NCBI GenBank assembly: GCA_965222625.1
Contig: OZ244962.1
Location: forward strand, 1,459,582 to 1,499,581
Length of the DNA stretch: 40,000 nt
Direction of reading: 5' to 3'
Origin: Gammaproteobacteria bacterium
GTDB taxonomy: Bacteria; Pseudomonadota; Gammaproteobacteria; PS1; Pseudothioglobaceae
Position numbers and translations under genes: made by a program. The notes under the pieces are model-generated. The model was not told where the DNA came from and made no database searches. It was given only the letters and a program-made list of their open reading frames with translations. Numbering within the stretch: position 1 is the first letter of the stretch; the number at the start of each line of letters is the position of its first letter. This document shows, piece by piece, positions 13,607-27,186 of this stretch.

Positions 13607-13837
13607 ATGAACAACAAAAACGCAATAGAAAGAACATATTATCAAGAAGACAACATTGACATAAGAAAAGTATTACGATCCCTCAGTGGGTATAAGTGGC
13701 TTATCTTTTGGAGTACAAGTGTCGCGTTGGTTTTGTCCGTTGTTGTTGCACTTTTGTGGCCCACTACCTACAAACATCCGTTTCTTTTTTATCGACAGAC
13801 GAGCCTTCTGTGCTTCTCATTAATCAAGCTAAAATGA
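13607..13837 (+). CDS. Wzz/PCP chain-length determinant, N-terminal fragment (cytoplasmic N-terminus + TM1), separated by a frameshift from the rest
   Basis: IDIRKVLRSLSGYKWLIFWSTSVALVLSVVVALLWPTTYK is a typical Wzz N-terminus plus TM1. The frame becomes nonsensical after ~13775 and stops at 13835-13837. Confidence 0.65.
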   Translation: MNNKNAIERTYYQEDNIDIRKVLRSLSGYKWLIFWSTSVALVLSVVVALLWPTTYKHPFLFYRQTSLLCFSLIKLK

Positions 13838-16023
13838 CAAGTGAGACAAGTCAGAGTCTATTTAAAAAGTTTTTAGATAAATTTAAGTCAAAAGAATTTC
13901 AGAAAAAAGTTTTTAATACCAATGGATACTTTGATAAGCTTAATGTGGAGGATGACGAAACTAAAAATAGTTTCTTTGCCAATTACTTAAACCAATCTGA
14001 TATAGAAAGTAGCCCGGTGGATAAAAATGCTTTTTTCCTTGAATCGATAGATTCATTTCAAGAGAATGTCGTTACCATCGTAAAAAACGAGGTCCAATCA
14101 ATATCAGAGCGGCCAGTTTCTTTTCATTGGGCTGGAAAACATCCTTTGGTTATGGAGAGTTTTTTAACCGACCTTGCTGCAAATGCAAATACCGAGGTTG
14201 TGGAAGAATCAATTGACCTTGTGAAGTATAAAATCGAGGCTCGCTTGAGTGAAATATCGAATCAAAAGTCATTATTACTTACATCAGCTAAAAACAATCG
14301 CCTGGCAAAAATTGAAAGAATAATAGTTGCCGACAAACAAAAAATAAGTGAAATTAATGGTCAAATTGATAGAGTTAGGGTCAAATTTAAAAAAGATCGT
14401 TTCACAGAAATCAAAAGAATTGAAGCCTCAAATGAACAAAAAATAGTCGAAATTAATGAACAAATAGATAGGTTGCGGGTTAAAGCTAAAAAGAATCGTT
14501 TGTTAGAGACCCAAAGAATTGAAGCATCAAACAAACAAAAAATAGTCGAAATTAATGAGCAAATAGATAGACTGCGGGTTAAAGCTAAAAAAAATCGTTT
14601 GTTAGAGACCCAAAGAATTGAAGCGTCCAATGAACAGAAAATAGCCGAAATTAATGAGCAAATAGATAGGCTGCGAGTTAAAGCTAAAAAAAATCGTTTG
14701 CTAGAAATCAAAAGAATTGAAGCATCAAACAAACAAAAAACAGTCGAAATTAATGAACAAGTCGATAGGCTGCGGGTTAAAGCTAAAAAGAATCGTTTTT
14801 TAGAGATCGAAAGAATTGAAGAGTCAAATAAACAAGAAATAAATGAGGCTACTAATTTAATTGATAGACTTCGAGTTAAGGCTAACGCAGTCCGCCTAAA
14901 TGAGATTAAAGAACTGACAGATGATTTGAAAATTTCTCGTAAGCTTAAGATTAAGTCTAATAACTTTAGTAGTTCTACCAAGAAGACTGGTGTCCTGTTG
15001 CTTGGCGCAGAGGACAAAAGATTACCCCGTTGGTATTTGTATGGCGAAGACGCATTGTATGAAGAGATTCAGATTCTTGAGGATAAAAAAAATGACGACT
15101 CATACATTCCGGAAGTTGTAAGCTTACAAAACAAGATTGTAAGGCTTCAATCTGATCAAAAGCTGCAATTTTTAAAGAATAGAGAAAATGACGACCCATA
15201 TATTCCAGAAATCGTAGGCCTGCAAAATCTAATTGTATCCATTGAGTCTGATCAAAAATTAAAAACCTTGGTGTCTAGAGAAAATGACGACCCTTATATC
15301 CCAGAAATTGTGGACCTGCAAAACCTAATTGTATCAACGGAATCTGATCAAAAATTAAAAGCGCTGGTGTCTAGAGAAAATGACGACCCATATCTTCCAG
15401 AAATTGTGGAGCTACAAAATGTAATTGTATCCATTGAATCTGATCAAAAATTAAAAGCCTTGGTATCTAGAAAAAATGACGACCCATATCTTCCGGAAAT
15501 TGTGGAGCTACAAAATGTAATTGTATCCATTGAATCTGATCAAAAATTAAAAGCCTTGGTATCTAGAAAAAATGACGACCCATATCTTCCGGAAATTGTG
15601 GACCTGCAAAATCTAATTGTATCCATTGAATCTGATCAAAAATTAAAAGCCTTGGTATCTAGAAAAAATGACGACCCCTATATCCCAGCAATCAACAACT
15701 TCCAAAATGAACTTCAAAAAATACAACACAATCAAGTGTTAAAAACATTGGAAGGCCAGGTTGATGACAGCCCTTTCATCTCAACCGAGATAAATAAATT
15801 AACCATAGAGGAGATTAAATTAAAGTCCTTTATGCCAAACACAAAAGGGGTTAACGCAATGCGCTTTAACCAGCGCCCCTACGCAAAACCTGATGGGCCT
15901 GACAAGAAGATGATAGTGGCAGGCGGCTTACTATTCGGGTTTATGTTAAGCTTTTTAATAGCCTTAATTGCCAGCCTACTATATAAGGAAACTGACTCGC
16001 CAAGCCTCCTGTCACAAGACTAA
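13696..16023 (+). CDS. Wzz/PCP polysaccharide co-polymerase, major part (periplasmic coiled-coil domain + Pro-rich motif + TM2)
   Basis: Long open frame overlapping 13607-13837 in another frame. The C-terminus RPYAKPDGPDKKMIVAGGLLFGFMLSFLIALIASLL is the PCP proline/glycine motif plus TM2. The first ~30 codons are unlikely to be native. Confidence 0.75.
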   Translation: MAYLLEYKCRVGFVRCCCTFVAHYLQTSVSFLSTDEPSVLLINQAKMTSETSQSLFKKFLDKFKSKEFQKKVFNTNGYFDKLNVEDDETKNSFFANYLNQSDIESSPVDKNAFFLESIDSFQENVVTIVKNEVQSISERPVSFHWAGKHPLVMESFLTDLAANANTEVVEESIDLVKYKIEARLSEISNQKSLLLTSAKNNRLAKIERIIVADKQKISEINGQIDRVRVKFKKDRFTEIKRIEASNEQKIVEINEQIDRLRVKAKKNRLLETQRIEASNKQKIVEINEQIDRLRVKAKKNRLLETQRIEASNEQKIAEINEQIDRLRVKAKKNRLLEIKRIEASNKQKTVEINEQVDRLRVKAKKNRFLEIERIEESNKQEINEATNLIDRLRVKANAVRLNEIKELTDDLKISRKLKIKSNNFSSSTKKTGVLLLGAEDKRLPRWYLYGEDALYEEIQILEDKKNDDSYIPEVVSLQNKIVRLQSDQKLQFLKNRENDDPYIPEIVGLQNLIVSIESDQKLKTLVSRENDDPYIPEIVDLQNLIVSTESDQKLKALVSRENDDPYLPEIVELQNVIVSIESDQKLKALVSRKNDDPYLPEIVELQNVIVSIESDQKLKALVSRKNDDPYLPEIVDLQNLIVSIESDQKLKALVSRKNDDPYIPAINNFQNELQKIQHNQVLKTLEGQVDDSPFISTEINKLTIEEIKLKSFMPNTKGVNAMRFNQRPYAKPDGPDKKMIVAGGLLFGFMLSFLIALIASLLYKETDSPSLLSQD
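14317..14910 (+). repeat. Tandem array A inside the PCP gene: 6 x 99 bp (33-aa unit RIEASNxQKIVEINEQIDRLRVKAKKNRLLExx)
   Basis: Unit starts at 14317, 14416, 14515, 14614, 14713 and 14812, exactly 99 bp apart. The outer units are more diverged. Confidence 0.92.
15091..15762 (+). repeat. Tandem array B inside the PCP gene: 7 x 96 bp (32-aa unit NDDPYxPEIVxLQNxIVSIESDQKLKALVSRx) plus a degenerate 8th unit
   Basis: Unit starts at 15091, 15187, 15283, 15379, 15475, 15571 and 15667. Units 4 and 5 differ at 1 of 96 nt. Confidence 0.92.
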
Positions 16024-19110: not shown

Positions 19111-20205
19111 GTGATACATATATTTTTTATTGGATACGTTCTCTCTGTCCTAATTCATCAAGATTTCGATAAATTAGGACTTGTAGTGTATGGCGTAATT
19201 GGGCTATCGTATAGGGTAAGAAACATAAGCACCATCAACACTAGAGCGGATATTCTTCTGCTGTTTTGCTTGTATTTAATATTTTCGTCTATTGCCTTTT
19301 TCACTAATGAAGTGTTATTTGTTTCAATCGCGTTTTTATTGCAGTTTGGAATTTTCTACTACGTATATCTTAAGGTTACAAAGCATGGAGACGAATTAAT
19401 ATTTAGCTGGTTAAAGATGTTAATCATATATCAAGTTGTTTTTGTCGTCATAGGGCTGATAGATTTTACTTTGTATCAAAATGGAATTGTTAGTTTTATA
19501 AAAGACTATGCTAAGGACTGGAAAATTGATTCTTTGTATGGAAACCCTAACCCTTTTGGGATTATGTCTAGCGTCTTATTCTTATCACTTTTATATTTCA
19601 AGAATTTATTATATCAATTTAGAAAGTTGTTATTAGCAATCTTAATAATGGGAGTGTTTTTAAGTGGTTCCGACATGGCTTTGGTTATTGCCATAGCTGG
19701 CTCTTTATTAAAAATAATTAGCCTAAAGTCAGCGTATAAATTTTTGGGTATTTTTATAATATTAGGTGCCGCTTTATTGGTCAACTTAGACGCTGATTTT
19801 TTAGATGGTGTTTTTAATAGAAGACTAAGATTGTGGACATATGCACTGTATCTTTATCAAGGCAATTATTTATTTGGCCTTGGCACTGGTGGCTTTGAAG
19901 ATATAGTATATAGCCAGTTTGGTTTAGGCTATGGACTGCATTCAATGTTTTTTTGGCTGATTACAGAATGCGGGGCGCTTGGAGTCCTTATATATGGGTA
20001 TTTTCTGTATGTTATATTTAGTCTGGAGACATTTGGCGACACATCCATCACTCTATTAAAGAAAATATTTCTTATGACTTTATTGTCTCAATTTACAGAA
20101 TTCTTCATAGACCATGTGGAATTTTTTCAATTATTTTACCATTTTCTAATAGGGGCTATACTTGGCAAATATTATTATCTTAAAAAAGATCGGATGATAA
20201 ATTGA
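19111..20205 (+). CDS. Polytopic membrane protein, Wzy/O-antigen-ligase-like polymerase
   Basis: GTG start directly after the upstream stop. ~10 TM helices with a larger loop. Assignment rests on context within the glycan locus; no diagnostic motif was recognised. Confidence 0.55.
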   Translation: MIHIFFIGYVLSVLIHQDFDKLGLVVYGVIGLSYRVRNISTINTRADILLLFCLYLIFSSIAFFTNEVLFVSIAFLLQFGIFYYVYLKVTKHGDELIFSWLKMLIIYQVVFVVIGLIDFTLYQNGIVSFIKDYAKDWKIDSLYGNPNPFGIMSSVLFLSLLYFKNLLYQFRKLLLAILIMGVFLSGSDMALVIAIAGSLLKIISLKSAYKFLGIFIILGAALLVNLDADFLDGVFNRRLRLWTYALYLYQGNYLFGLGTGGFEDIVYSQFGLGYGLHSMFFWLITECGALGVLIYGYFLYVIFSLETFGDTSITLLKKIFLMTLLSQFTEFFIDHVEFFQLFYHFLIGAILGKYYYLKKDRMIN

Positions 20206-25807: not shown

Positions 25808-27186
25808 GACCTTGTAAACCAGATTGTGTAAACCCTCATATTTTATAATCCCTAAAAAGGAGAAAAAACATGAGTAACACAACACTAAGACAAAACCAAA
25901 AGAACCAACTGAACAACACAGGCATCAACCAACAAAAACTACGCGCTTTTGCTGATGAACTTGCCAAAGACATCCACACTCAAGATGACTTAGCAGACCT
26001 ATCTGCCTCACTGGTTAAAATGACCATTGAAGCAGCACTCGGCGGCGAGATGGAACATCATCTTGGCTATCCAAAGCATGGACAGAATAACAATACAATT
26101 GATATAAATAGTAACGCTCGCAATGGCTACTACCCGAAGATTGTTAAAAGCAATCATAGCGAAATTAAACTCGCCATTCCAAGGGATCGTAGTGGCGATT
26201 TTGAGCCCTTAATCGTTGAAAAAGGCCAAACACGATTGGGTGCTTTCGATTCTCAAATATTAAGCCTGTATGCTAAAGGCATGTCCACTCGTGACATCGT
26301 ATCAACCTTTAAAGAAATGTACGATGCAGACATATCAGCCACCTTGGTGTCTAATGTAACACAGGCGGTTATTGCTCAAGCAACTGAGTGGCGTAATCGT
26401 CCACTGGATGAGGTCTATCCTATTGTTTATTTAGACGGCATTGTTATTAAAGTCAGGCAAGACAAGCAAATCATTAAAAAGACGATGTATATCGCCCTCG
26501 GCGTTAACCTTGAAGGCAAAAAGGAATGCTTGGGTCTATGGCTGTCTAAAAACGAATCTTCCAAGTTTTGGCTAGGCGTTCTTAATGATATTGCTAATCG
26601 TGGCGTTAAAGACATTCTGATTGCTTCAGTGGATGGCTTAACAGGCTTCCCTGAAGCCATTAATGCCGTATTCCCACAGGCCGATGTTCAGCTATGTATT
26701 GTTCACATGGTGCGTAATTCACTCAAATATGTTGGCTATAAGGATAAAAAACAGGTTGCCAGTAGTCTTAAGCAAATTTATCAATCCATTAGTGAAGATG
26801 AAGCCTTACTTGCACTTGATGAATTTGAGCATCGCTGGGGTAAGCAATTCCCAAGTATTGGCAAATCATGGCGTAGGCATTGGGATAATGTGGCAACAAT
26901 ATTTGCTTATCCTGAGGCTATTAGAAGGGCTATCTATACAACCAATGCGATTGAATCTTTAAACTCAGTGATTCGTAAATCAATCAAGAATCGCAAGATT
27001 TTTAATCATGATAACTCCGCCTTTAAGGTTGTTTTTTTAGCCATTGAAGCAGCGAGTAAAAGATGGACTATGCCAATACGGAATTGGCCACAAGCAATGA
27101 ATCAGTTTATAATCCTACATGAGGATAGATTAAAGGATTATGTCTGATTTTTGACGAGGACTTTACACAATCTGGTTTACAGGGTC
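25808..27186 (+). mobile_element. IS256-family insertion sequence (~1379 bp)
   Basis: IRL GACCTTGTAAACCAGATTGTGTAAA (25808-25832). IRR is the reverse complement of 27162-27186, GACCCTGTAAACCAGATTGTGTAAA (24/25). The ...ATTGTGTAAA ends are typical of IS256-like IRs. It encloses a mutator-type transposase. Confidence 0.9.
25870..27147 (+). CDS. IS256-family (mutator-type) transposase
   Basis: 425 aa with AGGAGA RBS. Motifs EAALGGEMEHHLGY, DRSGDFEP, IVYLDGI, LIASVDGLTGF, VQLCIVHMVRNS, YTTNAIESLN. Confidence 0.93.
   Translation: MSNTTLRQNQKNQLNNTGINQQKLRAFADELAKDIHTQDDLADLSASLVKMTIEAALGGEMEHHLGYPKHGQNNNTIDINSNARNGYYPKIVKSNHSEIKLAIPRDRSGDFEPLIVEKGQTRLGAFDSQILSLYAKGMSTRDIVSTFKEMYDADISATLVSNVTQAVIAQATEWRNRPLDEVYPIVYLDGIVIKVRQDKQIIKKTMYIALGVNLEGKKECLGLWLSKNESSKFWLGVLNDIANRGVKDILIASVDGLTGFPEAINAVFPQADVQLCIVHMVRNSLKYVGYKDKKQVASSLKQIYQSISEDEALLALDEFEHRWGKQFPSIGKSWRRHWDNVATIFAYPEAIRRAIYTTNAIESLNSVIRKSIKNRKIFNHDNSAFKVVFLAIEAASKRWTMPIRNWPQAMNQFIILHEDRLKDYV

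What the first reader, a model, noticed from the sequence alone, without database searches (positions are those of the whole stretch)
14317..15762. Wzz/PCP co-polymerase whose periplasmic domain is built from two long, recently expanded tandem arrays (6 x 33 aa and 7 x 32 aa)
Two arrays have exact periodicity: 99 bp (14317-14910) and 96 bp (15091-15762). Adjacent units are up to 95/96 nt identical. They encode heptad-rich, charged, coiled-coil-like units (RIEASNEQKIVEINEQIDRLRVKAKKNRLLETQ and NDDPYIPEIVxLQNLIVSIESDQKLKALVSRx).

They sit between TM1 and the Pro/Gly motif plus TM2 of a PCP-type protein, so about 420 of 775 residues are repeats. PCP periplasmic helical bundles are implicated in setting polysaccharide modal length. 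Repeat gain or loss would lengthen or shorten that domain in 32/33-residue steps. I have not seen such an architecture described for PCPs.
Basis: partly seen in the sequence, partly recalled or inferred. Interest (0 to 1): 0.6.

Follow-up and report, generated by a model that had tools for sequence, protein, structure and literature searches.

The report
Wzz regulator with paired, length-matched repeat arms
This is a sugar-chain length regulator gene (Wzz type), here broken by a one-base frameshift, whose long periplasmic helical hairpin is built from two repeat arrays that sit on the hairpin's two arms; relatives in marine sulfur bacteria gain and lose the two kinds of repeat together, giving a natural series of short to very tall versions that could test the "molecular ruler" idea for chain-length control.

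Summary
ORF 13696-16023 carries a 99-nt array (6 units of 33 aa) and a 96-nt array (7 units of 32 aa), 422 of 775 residues.

The PCP/Wzz reading also holds. Intact orthologues pass Pfam Wzz and GNVR, and the model of one has the WzzE/WzzB/FepE fold.

New findings:
- Array A lies in the long ascending helix. Array B lies in the return helices at the same distance from the tip.
- In 183 complete family members, mostly from metagenomes (the named genome hits are Ca. Thioglobus/SUP05 MAGs), the two arm lengths change together (r = 0.91). The steps are -33/-32, 0/0, +33/+32 and +66/+64 aa. The window is the extreme at +165/+193.
- Two pairs of near-identical alleles differ only by one exact 99-nt and one exact 96-nt indel.
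- One relative built an independent pair of arrays with 22- and 23-aa units (+88/+89 aa).
- Most window units are not recent: dS reaches 0.3-0.67 and pN/pS is about 0.23.

Caveats:
- The window's gene is split by a 1-nt frameshift at 13768-13776.
- Any effect on glycan chain length is inferred.
- This scan had noted single in-frame duplications in Wzz coiled coils of other genomes, but no paired arrays.

The parts
13607..13773 (+). 5' part of the wzz-like gene: start codon, cytoplasmic N-terminus and TM1 (read in the frame of ATG 13607)
   Evidence: The 76-aa ORF 13607-13837 hits Pfam Wzz positions 1-42. A hydrophobic segment spans residues 29-55. It aligns with the N-termini of intact orthologues.
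13768..13776 (+). Frameshift site: 'tacaaacat', where intact relatives imply one more base (reading ...TYK then TS.SFLS...)
   Evidence: Sequence. Orthologue L002 reads ...PTYKATTSFLSP... in one frame. The window needs a -1 shift here to continue. No slippery heptamer or long homopolymer is present.
13774..16023 (+). Rest of the coding sequence (749 codons plus stop): base domain, hairpin with both arrays, Pro-rich segment, TM2
   Evidence: The frame is open. Homologues match at E down to 3.7e-122.
14284..14877 (+). Array A: 6 units of 99 nt / 33 aa, inside the long ascending helix (alpha6 equivalent)
   Evidence: The AF2 helix spans residues 124-318 and 326-390 of the 749-aa reading and contains the array at 171-368.
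14878..15081 (+). Hairpin tip: end of the long helix, low-confidence loop, conserved WYLYG motif and first return helix
   Evidence: Alignment A2 shows invariant NNF and P.WYL.G motifs. The AF2 loop spans residues 391-418.
15082..15756 (+). Array B: 7 units of 96 nt / 32 aa, each predicted as a roughly 24-residue helix plus an NDDPY(I/L)P linker, forming the descending arm
   Evidence: AF2 predicts helices at 510-533, 541-564, 573-596 and so on, at low pLDDT.
15904..15990 (+). TM2 (Gly-rich), preceded by a Pro-rich segment
   Evidence: The hydropathy peak covers residues 711-739 of the 749-aa reading. A weak GNVR hit falls at residues 731-758 of the 775-aa frame. AF2 predicts a helix at 711-735.

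Best explanation
The gene encodes a class-1 polysaccharide co-polymerase (Wzz type) within a Wzx/Wzy-type surface-glycan locus. Its periplasmic part is the usual Wzz hairpin: one long helix going up, a tip loop, and shorter helices coming back down. Array A lengthens the ascending helix by 33 residues per unit, about 50 A. Array B lengthens the descending arm by one 32-residue helix-plus-linker unit. Both arrays sit at the same distance from the tip, so one A unit and one B unit together add one storey to the hairpin, and to the wall of the oligomeric bell. Units are gained and lost in frame by slippage or unequal recombination between the direct repeats at unit borders. Alleles in which the two arms differ by more than about one unit are apparently selected against. 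The family therefore exists as a series with estimated helix heights of about 100, 150, 200 and 250 A. The window's allele is the tallest known, at about 400 A if the helix is straight. I infer, but have not shown, that hairpin height tunes the modal chain length of the glycan made by this locus, or otherwise how far the growing chain is guided. In this genome the gene carries a 1-nt frameshift after TM1. It is therefore either a very recently inactivated copy or carries a sequencing error.
For: SHOWN.
- Wzz identity: Pfam Wzz and GNVR hits on intact orthologues; a profile of the family hits Wzc, WzzB, WzzE and FepE chains; the AF2 model of P0024 (pLDDT 79) matches Wzz structures by Foldseek.
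- Position of the arrays: in P0024, unit A (210-242) ends 22 residues before the end of helix 163-264, and unit B (315-347) starts 18 residues after the return helix begins at 297. The same 22 and 18 offsets hold in the window model.
- Coupling of the arms: among 183 complete family members, the steps (A,B) relative to P0024 are (-1,-1) in 13, (0,0) in 96, (1,1) in 39, (2,2) in 10, (3,3) in 1, and (5,6) in the window. Twenty-two proteins are off by one and 1 is off by two. Pearson r is 0.91. The change in arm A is an exact multiple of 33 in 154 of 183.
- Repeated changes: a tree built on the non-repeat core needs at least 14 changes in A and at least 16 in B. In 7 independent pairs B moved the same way in 6.4 on average and never the opposite way.
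- Near-isogenic alleles: P0020 and P0044 differ by 12 mismatches in about 1400 nt plus exact 99-nt and 96-nt indels flanked by direct repeats of 14 and at least 25 nt. P0003 and P0018 differ in the same way.
- The exact repeats in these contigs (54 nt or less) are shorter than the assembler's k of 141, so assembly collapse is unlikely.
- Independent origin: P0048 has paired 22-aa and 23-aa arrays adding +88/+89 aa.
- Purifying selection on the window's units: pooled pN/pS is 0.25 for A and 0.22 for B.
- Locus context: MBOAT, NeuB, CMP-sugar synthetase, MurJ/MOP-type flippase, Bac_transf initiating transferase, and a polytopic membrane ORF that could be Wzy.
FROM THE LITERATURE. In E. coli WzzB the bell is about 100 A high, and alpha7/alpha8 pack on the long alpha6 of the neighbouring protomer (PMC7809406).
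INFERRED. The heights assume 1.5 A per helical residue. The link to chain length is also inferred.
Against: - No experiment links Wzz height to modal length. Published mutagenesis points to many surface regions and to the L4 loop rather than to height (PMC7809406).
- The window model is only moderately confident (pLDDT 65, and about 40 in the middle B units) and shows a break at residues 318-326, so the hairpin may be kinked rather than straight.
- I had no model coordinates, so contact between A and B units is deduced from equal distance to the tip, not observed.
- A 400 A rod would exceed the usual width of a periplasm (about 200-300 A in E. coli, from my own knowledge).
- The window's gene is frameshifted, and the genome has a second, intact short Wzz, so this copy may be dispensable or dead.
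- No close relative of the 6/7 allele was found, so copy-number variation of this particular allele is unknown.
Confidence: 0.6

Rival explanations
1. The arms must match only so that the hairpin folds, and hairpin length has no effect on the glycan. On this view the repeats are near-neutral slippage products tolerated by a robust scaffold, and the length series is drift.
For: Matched arms are explained by folding alone. Off-by-one alleles exist (22 of 183). The literature does not tie Wzz height to modal length.
Against: Purifying selection acts on unit sequences (pN/pS about 0.23). Discrete length classes persist across many 50%-identity clusters. Paired arrays arose independently (P0048). 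Near-isogenic alleles of different height turn up in different assemblies with nearby accession numbers, which looks more like maintained polymorphism than decay.
Confidence: 0.25
2. The extended hairpin is an envelope-spanning scaffold rather than a ruler. It would reach through the peptidoglycan towards an outer-membrane partner or export channel, as Wzc reaches Wza or KpsE reaches KpsD, and its length would track envelope geometry or the partner.
For: The estimated heights of 250-400 A equal or exceed periplasm width. Foldseek also matches Wzc and KpsE. Two relatives carry a lectin-like Laminin_G_3 domain at the hairpin tip, which suggests the tip contacts glycan or wall.
Against: No OPX/Wza gene was seen in the window. 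There is no kinase domain. Very different heights occur among near-identical alleles, which is hard to reconcile with one fixed envelope width.
Confidence: 0.12
3. In this genome the locus is simply a dead gene, and the extreme array size is runaway expansion after loss of function.
For: There is a frameshift after TM1. The glycan island is flanked by IS elements and has lower G+C (35% against 39.5% for the genome). A second Wzz is present. The window is by far the longest allele.
Against: 749 codons remain open in 35% G+C DNA. Most unit duplications are old (dS 0.3-0.67) yet show pN/pS of about 0.23, so the expansion predates any inactivation and evolved under selection. The arms remain matched within one unit.
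Confidence: 0.1
4. The copy numbers are assembly artefacts.
For: The three youngest B units share a 107-nt stretch that repeats exactly one 96-nt unit downstream (about 203 nt of ambiguous sequence), so short reads could misjudge B by one unit. Most relatives come from short-read metagenome assemblies.
Against: The genome is one closed 1.5-Mb contig. A units share at most 32 nt exactly. In the relatives used for the key comparisons, exact repeats are 54 nt or less, against k = 141, and units are only 36-64% identical. Artefacts would not remove one A unit and one B unit together.
Confidence: 0.03

Closest known systems
PCP-1 co-polymerases WzzB, WzzE and FepE of Enterobacteria (PDB 6rbg, 8bhw/8p3p, 3b8m)
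   Same: Both have TM1, an alpha/beta base, a long alpha6 helix with return helices, a Pro-rich segment, a Gly-rich TM2 and no kinase domain. The fold match has Foldseek probability 1.0. The shortest family class (about 360 aa, -33/-32) has the canonical size, with an estimated helix height of about 100 A, like WzzB.
   Different: The hairpin here is 1.5 to 4 times longer and is built from tandem units on both arms. Unit number is polymorphic and coupled between the arms. Sequence identity to solved structures is only 10-16%.
WbdD coiled-coil ruler of E. coli O9a (ABC-transporter pathway; PMC3482155, PMC5082667)
   Same: Works alike, if my inference is right: the length of a helical rod sets O-antigen chain length.
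   Different: WbdD is an unrelated cytoplasmic kinase/methyltransferase terminator. It has no tandem arrays and no hairpin with two arms. It is not a family member.
Intragenic tandem repeats of tolA in E. coli (PMC3477136)
   Same: Both show in-frame tandem-repeat copy-number variation between strains in a long helical periplasmic domain.
   Different: TolA has a single array, is a different protein, and has no second array that must keep pace.
Length rulers built from repeats: injectisome YscP and phage tape-measure proteins (my own knowledge, not checked here)
   Same: Protein length translates into the length of a product, and duplications change it in steps.
   Different: These are different folds and pathways, and they are extended chains rather than a hairpin wall.

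Membership tests
PCP-1 (Wzz) polysaccharide co-polymerase | N-terminal Wzz domain (PF02706) with TM1 | tested here: met
   The window's N-terminal ORF scores 21.1 bits, under the 25.5 cut-off, because the frameshift leaves only profile positions 1-42. TM1 lies at residues 29-55. Orthologues at 45-49% identity score 43.9-45.1 bits.
PCP-1 (Wzz) polysaccharide co-polymerase | Pro-rich segment and Gly-rich TM2 at the C-terminus (GNVR, PF13807) | tested here: inconclusive
   The window protein scores only 13.4 bits against a 27.7 cut-off. A TM2 with AGG..G.. is present at residues 711-739, preceded by P..KP.GP.KK. The orthologue L002 passes at 29.4 bits.
PCP-1 (Wzz) polysaccharide co-polymerase | Periplasmic fold: alpha/beta base plus long alpha6 and return helices | tested here: met
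   This holds for the AF2 model of orthologue P0024 (pLDDT 79), whose top Foldseek hits are WzzE 8p3p (E 5.9e-11), WzzB 6rbg and FepE 3b8m. The window model has the same order of elements.
PCP-1 (Wzz) polysaccharide co-polymerase | No cytoplasmic tyrosine-kinase domain (separates PCP-1 from PCP-2a) | tested here: met
   The protein ends about 10-25 residues after TM2. NCBIfam Wzc models match only the first 60 residues or so.
PCP-1 (Wzz) polysaccharide co-polymerase | Sits in a Wzx/Wzy-dependent glycan locus | tested here: inconclusive
   A MurJ/MOP-type flippase and a Bac_transf initiating transferase are present. A 364-aa polytopic membrane ORF at 19111-20202 could be Wzy but matches no family.
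PCP-1 (Wzz) polysaccharide co-polymerase | Forms an oligomeric bell and imposes a modal chain length | not testable with these tools
   This needs expression, LPS gels and cryo-EM.

The most novel reading that the evidence does not exclude
A clade of Wzz proteins has turned the periplasmic hairpin into a telescopic, two-armed repeat module. Natural populations, of SUP05-type sulfur oxidisers where the source genome is named, hold alleles from about 100 to about 400 A tall. These arise by coupled gain and loss of one 33-aa unit and one 32-aa unit. The height would act as a tunable ruler for surface-glycan chain length, giving fast, reversible variation of the cell surface, for example under phage pressure.
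Probability: 0.35. Interest if true: 0.85.

Novelty: new variant of a known kind. Interest (0 to 1): 0.68.

Why it matters
How Wzz proteins set a preferred polysaccharide length has been debated for about thirty years, with ruler, timer/chaperone and hybrid models on offer. Laboratory mutants have not separated these models, because they rarely change the height of the bell cleanly.

This family offers a ready-made series of natural alleles. Some are near-isogenic and differ only by whole storeys of the hairpin. Off-by-one alleles also exist. Expressing the series in a wzz-null laboratory strain would test directly whether height sets chain length.

The family is also a clear case of two separate tandem arrays in one gene being held in step by a structural constraint. 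That is of interest for repeat-protein evolution and for designing helical hairpins of set length.

Tried and rejected
I could therefore check neither the frameshift nor the copy numbers in reads.
- A crude genome-wide count of overlapping same-strand frames, meant to gauge indel error rate, was uninformative: it gave 153 pairs, mostly normal gene starts.
- A Fourier analysis of hydrophobic periodicity in the arrays returned only harmonics of the unit length, with no clear 3.5 or 3.67 signal. I make no heptad or hendecad claim beyond noting that changes in arm A are mostly multiples of 11.
- hmmalign anchoring failed for the most repeated proteins. I replaced it with global pairwise alignment.
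- Searches for close relatives of the window's allele found nothing closer than 36% (metagenome contigs) or nothing at all (fragment-sized query).
- NCBIfam gave nothing useful for the window ORF.
- I considered programmed frameshifting or phase variation at 13768-13776 and rejected both. There is no slippery heptamer, and the A run has only 3 bases.
- The 218-aa minus-strand ORF at 14361-15017 is a shadow of the repeats, not a gene.
- Unit-HMM counting is unreliable for relatives below about 40% identity. I did not use it for the family-wide table.
Full report
**1. Observation.**
ORF 13696-16023 (+, 775 aa) contains two perfect-period tandem arrays.
- Tandem Repeats Finder gives a 99-nt period (score 673) and a 96-nt period (score 802), both with 0% indels.
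- The repeat finder gives exact spacings of 99 and 96 nt.
- Unit HMMs recognise 6 A units (33 aa; nt 14284-14877) and 7 B units (32 aa; nt 15082-15756). That is 422 of 775 residues.

**2. The gene is split.**
- The true start (ATG 13607), the cytoplasmic N-terminus and TM1 lie in a 76-aa ORF in another frame.
- The intact orthologue L002:2-1297 reads ...PTYKATTSFLSP... without interruption.
- The window reads ...TTYK in one frame and TSVSFLST... in the other. One base is therefore missing in 'tacaaacat' at 13768-13776.
- There is no slippery site or long homopolymer, so programmed frameshifting or phase variation is unlikely.
- The 749 downstream codons remain open in 35% G+C DNA. If the frameshift is a real inactivation, it is very recent.

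**3. What the protein is.**
- The window's two pieces score below Pfam cut-offs: Wzz 21.1 bits on the truncated N-terminal piece and GNVR 13.4 bits.
- Intact orthologues at 45-49% identity pass both models: 43.9 and 29.4 bits, with further examples.
- All 52 homologues found (E down to 3.7e-122) carry a precomputed Wzz hit.
- A family profile hits Wzc, WzzB, WzzE and FepE chains.
- The AF2 model of the single-copy orthologue P0024 (pLDDT 79) shows these elements in order:
  - TM1 at 29-49;
  - an alpha/beta base;
  - one long helix at 163-264;
  - a low-confidence tip loop at 265-296;
  - return helices at 297-370;
  - TM2 at 398-422.
- Its best Foldseek matches are WzzE 8p3p, WzzB 6rbg, Wzc and FepE, all at probability 1.0.
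- There is no kinase domain.
- The surrounding genes are:
  - MBOAT;
  - CBS-cupin phosphomannose isomerase;
  - NeuB, a CMP-sugar synthetase fused to HAD, a MurJ/MOP-type flippase, a Bac_transf initiating transferase and AsnB;
  - a 364-aa polytopic membrane ORF without family hits that could be Wzy.

This is a class-1 polysaccharide co-polymerase in a surface-glycan locus. Genome relatives whose records carry a species name are Ca. Thioglobus (SUP05) MAGs. The window's genome is a closed 1.50-Mb contig. It also has a second, ordinary 287-aa Wzz elsewhere.

**4. Where the arrays sit.**
- In P0024, the single A unit (210-242) ends 22 residues before the end of the long helix.
- The single B unit (315-347) starts 18 residues after the return helix begins.
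- In the window model (pLDDT 65), the helix runs 124-318 and 326-390, 267 residues in all. Array A (171-368) again ends 22 residues before the tip. Array B (437-661) again starts 18 residues after the return begins at 419.
- Residues equally far from the turn of an antiparallel hairpin lie side by side, so A and B units are partners. This is an inference, because I had no coordinates.
- In solved WzzB, alpha7/alpha8 pack on the long alpha6 of the neighbouring protomer, and the bell is about 100 A high (PMC7809406).
- At 1.5 A per residue, each unit pair adds about 50 A.
- B units are predicted as helices of about 24 residues joined by NDDPY(I/L)P linkers.

**5. The two arrays change together across the family.**
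A profile search of 1.84 billion representatives finds 449 family members at E <= 1e-30. Their lengths cluster near 360, 430, 495 and 560-590 aa.

I measured arm lengths in 183 complete proteins by global alignment to P0024, using four anchor residues.

| Step relative to P0024 (A, B) | Number of proteins |
|---|---|
| (-1,-1) | 13 |
| (0,0) | 96 |
| (1,1) | 39 |
| (2,2) | 10 |
| (3,3) | 1 |
| (5,6), the window | 1 |
| off by one | 22 |
| off by two | 1 |

- Pearson r is 0.91.
- The change in arm A is an exact multiple of 33 residues in 154 of 183 proteins. Most other values are multiples of 11.
- The window (+165/+193 aa) is by far the longest. The next longest is P0048 (+88/+89 aa).
- P0048 reached that length with a different pair of units: 22 aa on arm A and 23 aa on arm B. 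That is an independent origin of the same design.

**6. The changes are frequent and are separate events.**
- On a tree built from the non-repeat core (58 rows), the A count needs at least 14 changes and the B count at least 16.
- In 7 phylogenetically independent pairs that differ in A, B moved the same way in 6.4 on average and never the opposite way (sign test median p = 0.03).
- P0020 (2/2) and P0044 (1/1) differ by 4 residues in 429, plus one 33-aa and one 32-aa gap.
- At DNA level these two differ by 12 mismatches in about 1400 nt, plus exact 99-nt and 96-nt indels. The indels are bordered by direct repeats of 14 nt and at least 25 nt.
- P0003 (3/3) and P0018 (2/2) behave the same way.
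- P0008 (3/2) and P0001 (3/4) are one-step neighbours.
- The region between the arrays is nearly identical in these pairs. A single recombination that swapped the whole hairpin therefore cannot explain them: two indels are needed each time.
- Assembly collapse is unlikely. Units in 2/2 alleles are only 36-64% identical, and exact repeats are 54 nt or less, against k = 141.

**7. Age and selection in the window.**
- Inner units differ mainly at synonymous sites. dS is 0.23-0.67, pooled pN/pS is 0.25 for A and 0.22 for B, and only three B units are young (dS 0.05-0.10).
- The expanded protein was therefore functional for a long time. 'Recently expanded' applies only to part of array B.

**8. Mechanism, with confidence marked.**
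- Shown: Wzz identity, the location of the arrays on the two arms, quantised and coupled length changes, unit gain and loss at direct repeats, and purifying selection.
- Inferred: A and B units contact each other, so selection removes alleles with unmatched arms.
- Also inferred, at about 35-40%: hairpin height tunes the modal chain length of the glycan.
- Against the last point, published work ties modal length to many surface patches and to the L4 loop, not to height. A straight 400 A hairpin would also exceed a typical periplasm (my own knowledge).
- Rivals considered: a folding constraint only, with no effect on the glycan; an envelope-spanning scaffold; a dead gene with runaway expansion; and assembly artefact.

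**9. Novelty.**
- Full-text searches for Wzz or co-polymerases with tandem repeats, copy number or extended hairpins found no description of this architecture. The held library is incomplete.
- Functional analogues are the WbdD coiled-coil ruler (PMC3482155, PMC5082667) and tolA intragenic repeats (PMC3477136).
- Earlier notes of this scan record single in-frame duplications in Wzz coiled coils of other genomes, but no paired arrays.
- I class this as a new variant of a known kind.

Noticed in passing
G000:C1:901990-902853 (L033:491-1354): The genome has a second, intact and much shorter Wzz (287 aa; Pfam Wzz 64.2 bits, GNVR 31.2 bits). Similar proteins of about 330 aa occur in several genomes of the same genus, so this is probably the core chain-length regulator.
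   Followed up: partly
P0048 (603 aa, JGI metagenome protein): This relative has a different pair of arrays: about five 22-aa units on the ascending helix and about four 23-aa units on the return arm (+88/+89 aa). It is an independent origin of matched arm expansion.
   Followed up: partly
P0081 (632 aa) and L029:2829-4620 (597-aa frame): These Wzz relatives have the shortest hairpin (-33/-32 aa) but carry a 230-260-aa concanavalin/Laminin_G_3 lectin-like domain inserted at the hairpin tip (Pfam 65.7 bits). The tip of the bell may bind glycan.
   Followed up: partly
window 13831-13845 and homologues (alignment A2 columns 85-95; L002): A 9-nt 'SET' microsatellite (TSETSETSE...) near residue 75-85 of the base domain varies in copy number between homologues, from 1 to 6 copies, even between near-identical alleles.
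   Followed up: no
L031, L034, L036 (metagenome contigs): Homologues share a conserved neighbourhood: a divergent XRE/HTH_3 gene, an 82-aa ORF overlapping the wzz start, and a NusG-family (RfaH-like?) gene directly downstream. The window lacks this arrangement.
   Followed up: no
window 19111-20202 (+): A 364-aa ORF with at least 8 hydrophobic segments has no Pfam or NCBIfam hit at any threshold. It is a candidate O-antigen polymerase (Wzy), judged only from position and topology.
   Followed up: partly
window 14361-15017 (-): A 218-aa open frame lies on the opposite strand of array A. It is itself repetitive and is most likely a shadow of the repeats rather than a gene.
   Followed up: no
window about 14000-14060 (alignment A2 columns 157-176): The window protein has a 20-residue insertion in the base domain, just before the conserved YEKP strand, that none of the 30 aligned homologues has. 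AF2 confidence there is below 50.
   Followed up: no
window 25870-27147 and window-wide G+C: An IS256/Mutator-family transposase (Pfam 366 bits) ends the glycan locus. The locus is 32-36% G+C against 39.5% for the genome, consistent with an acquired island.
   Followed up: partly
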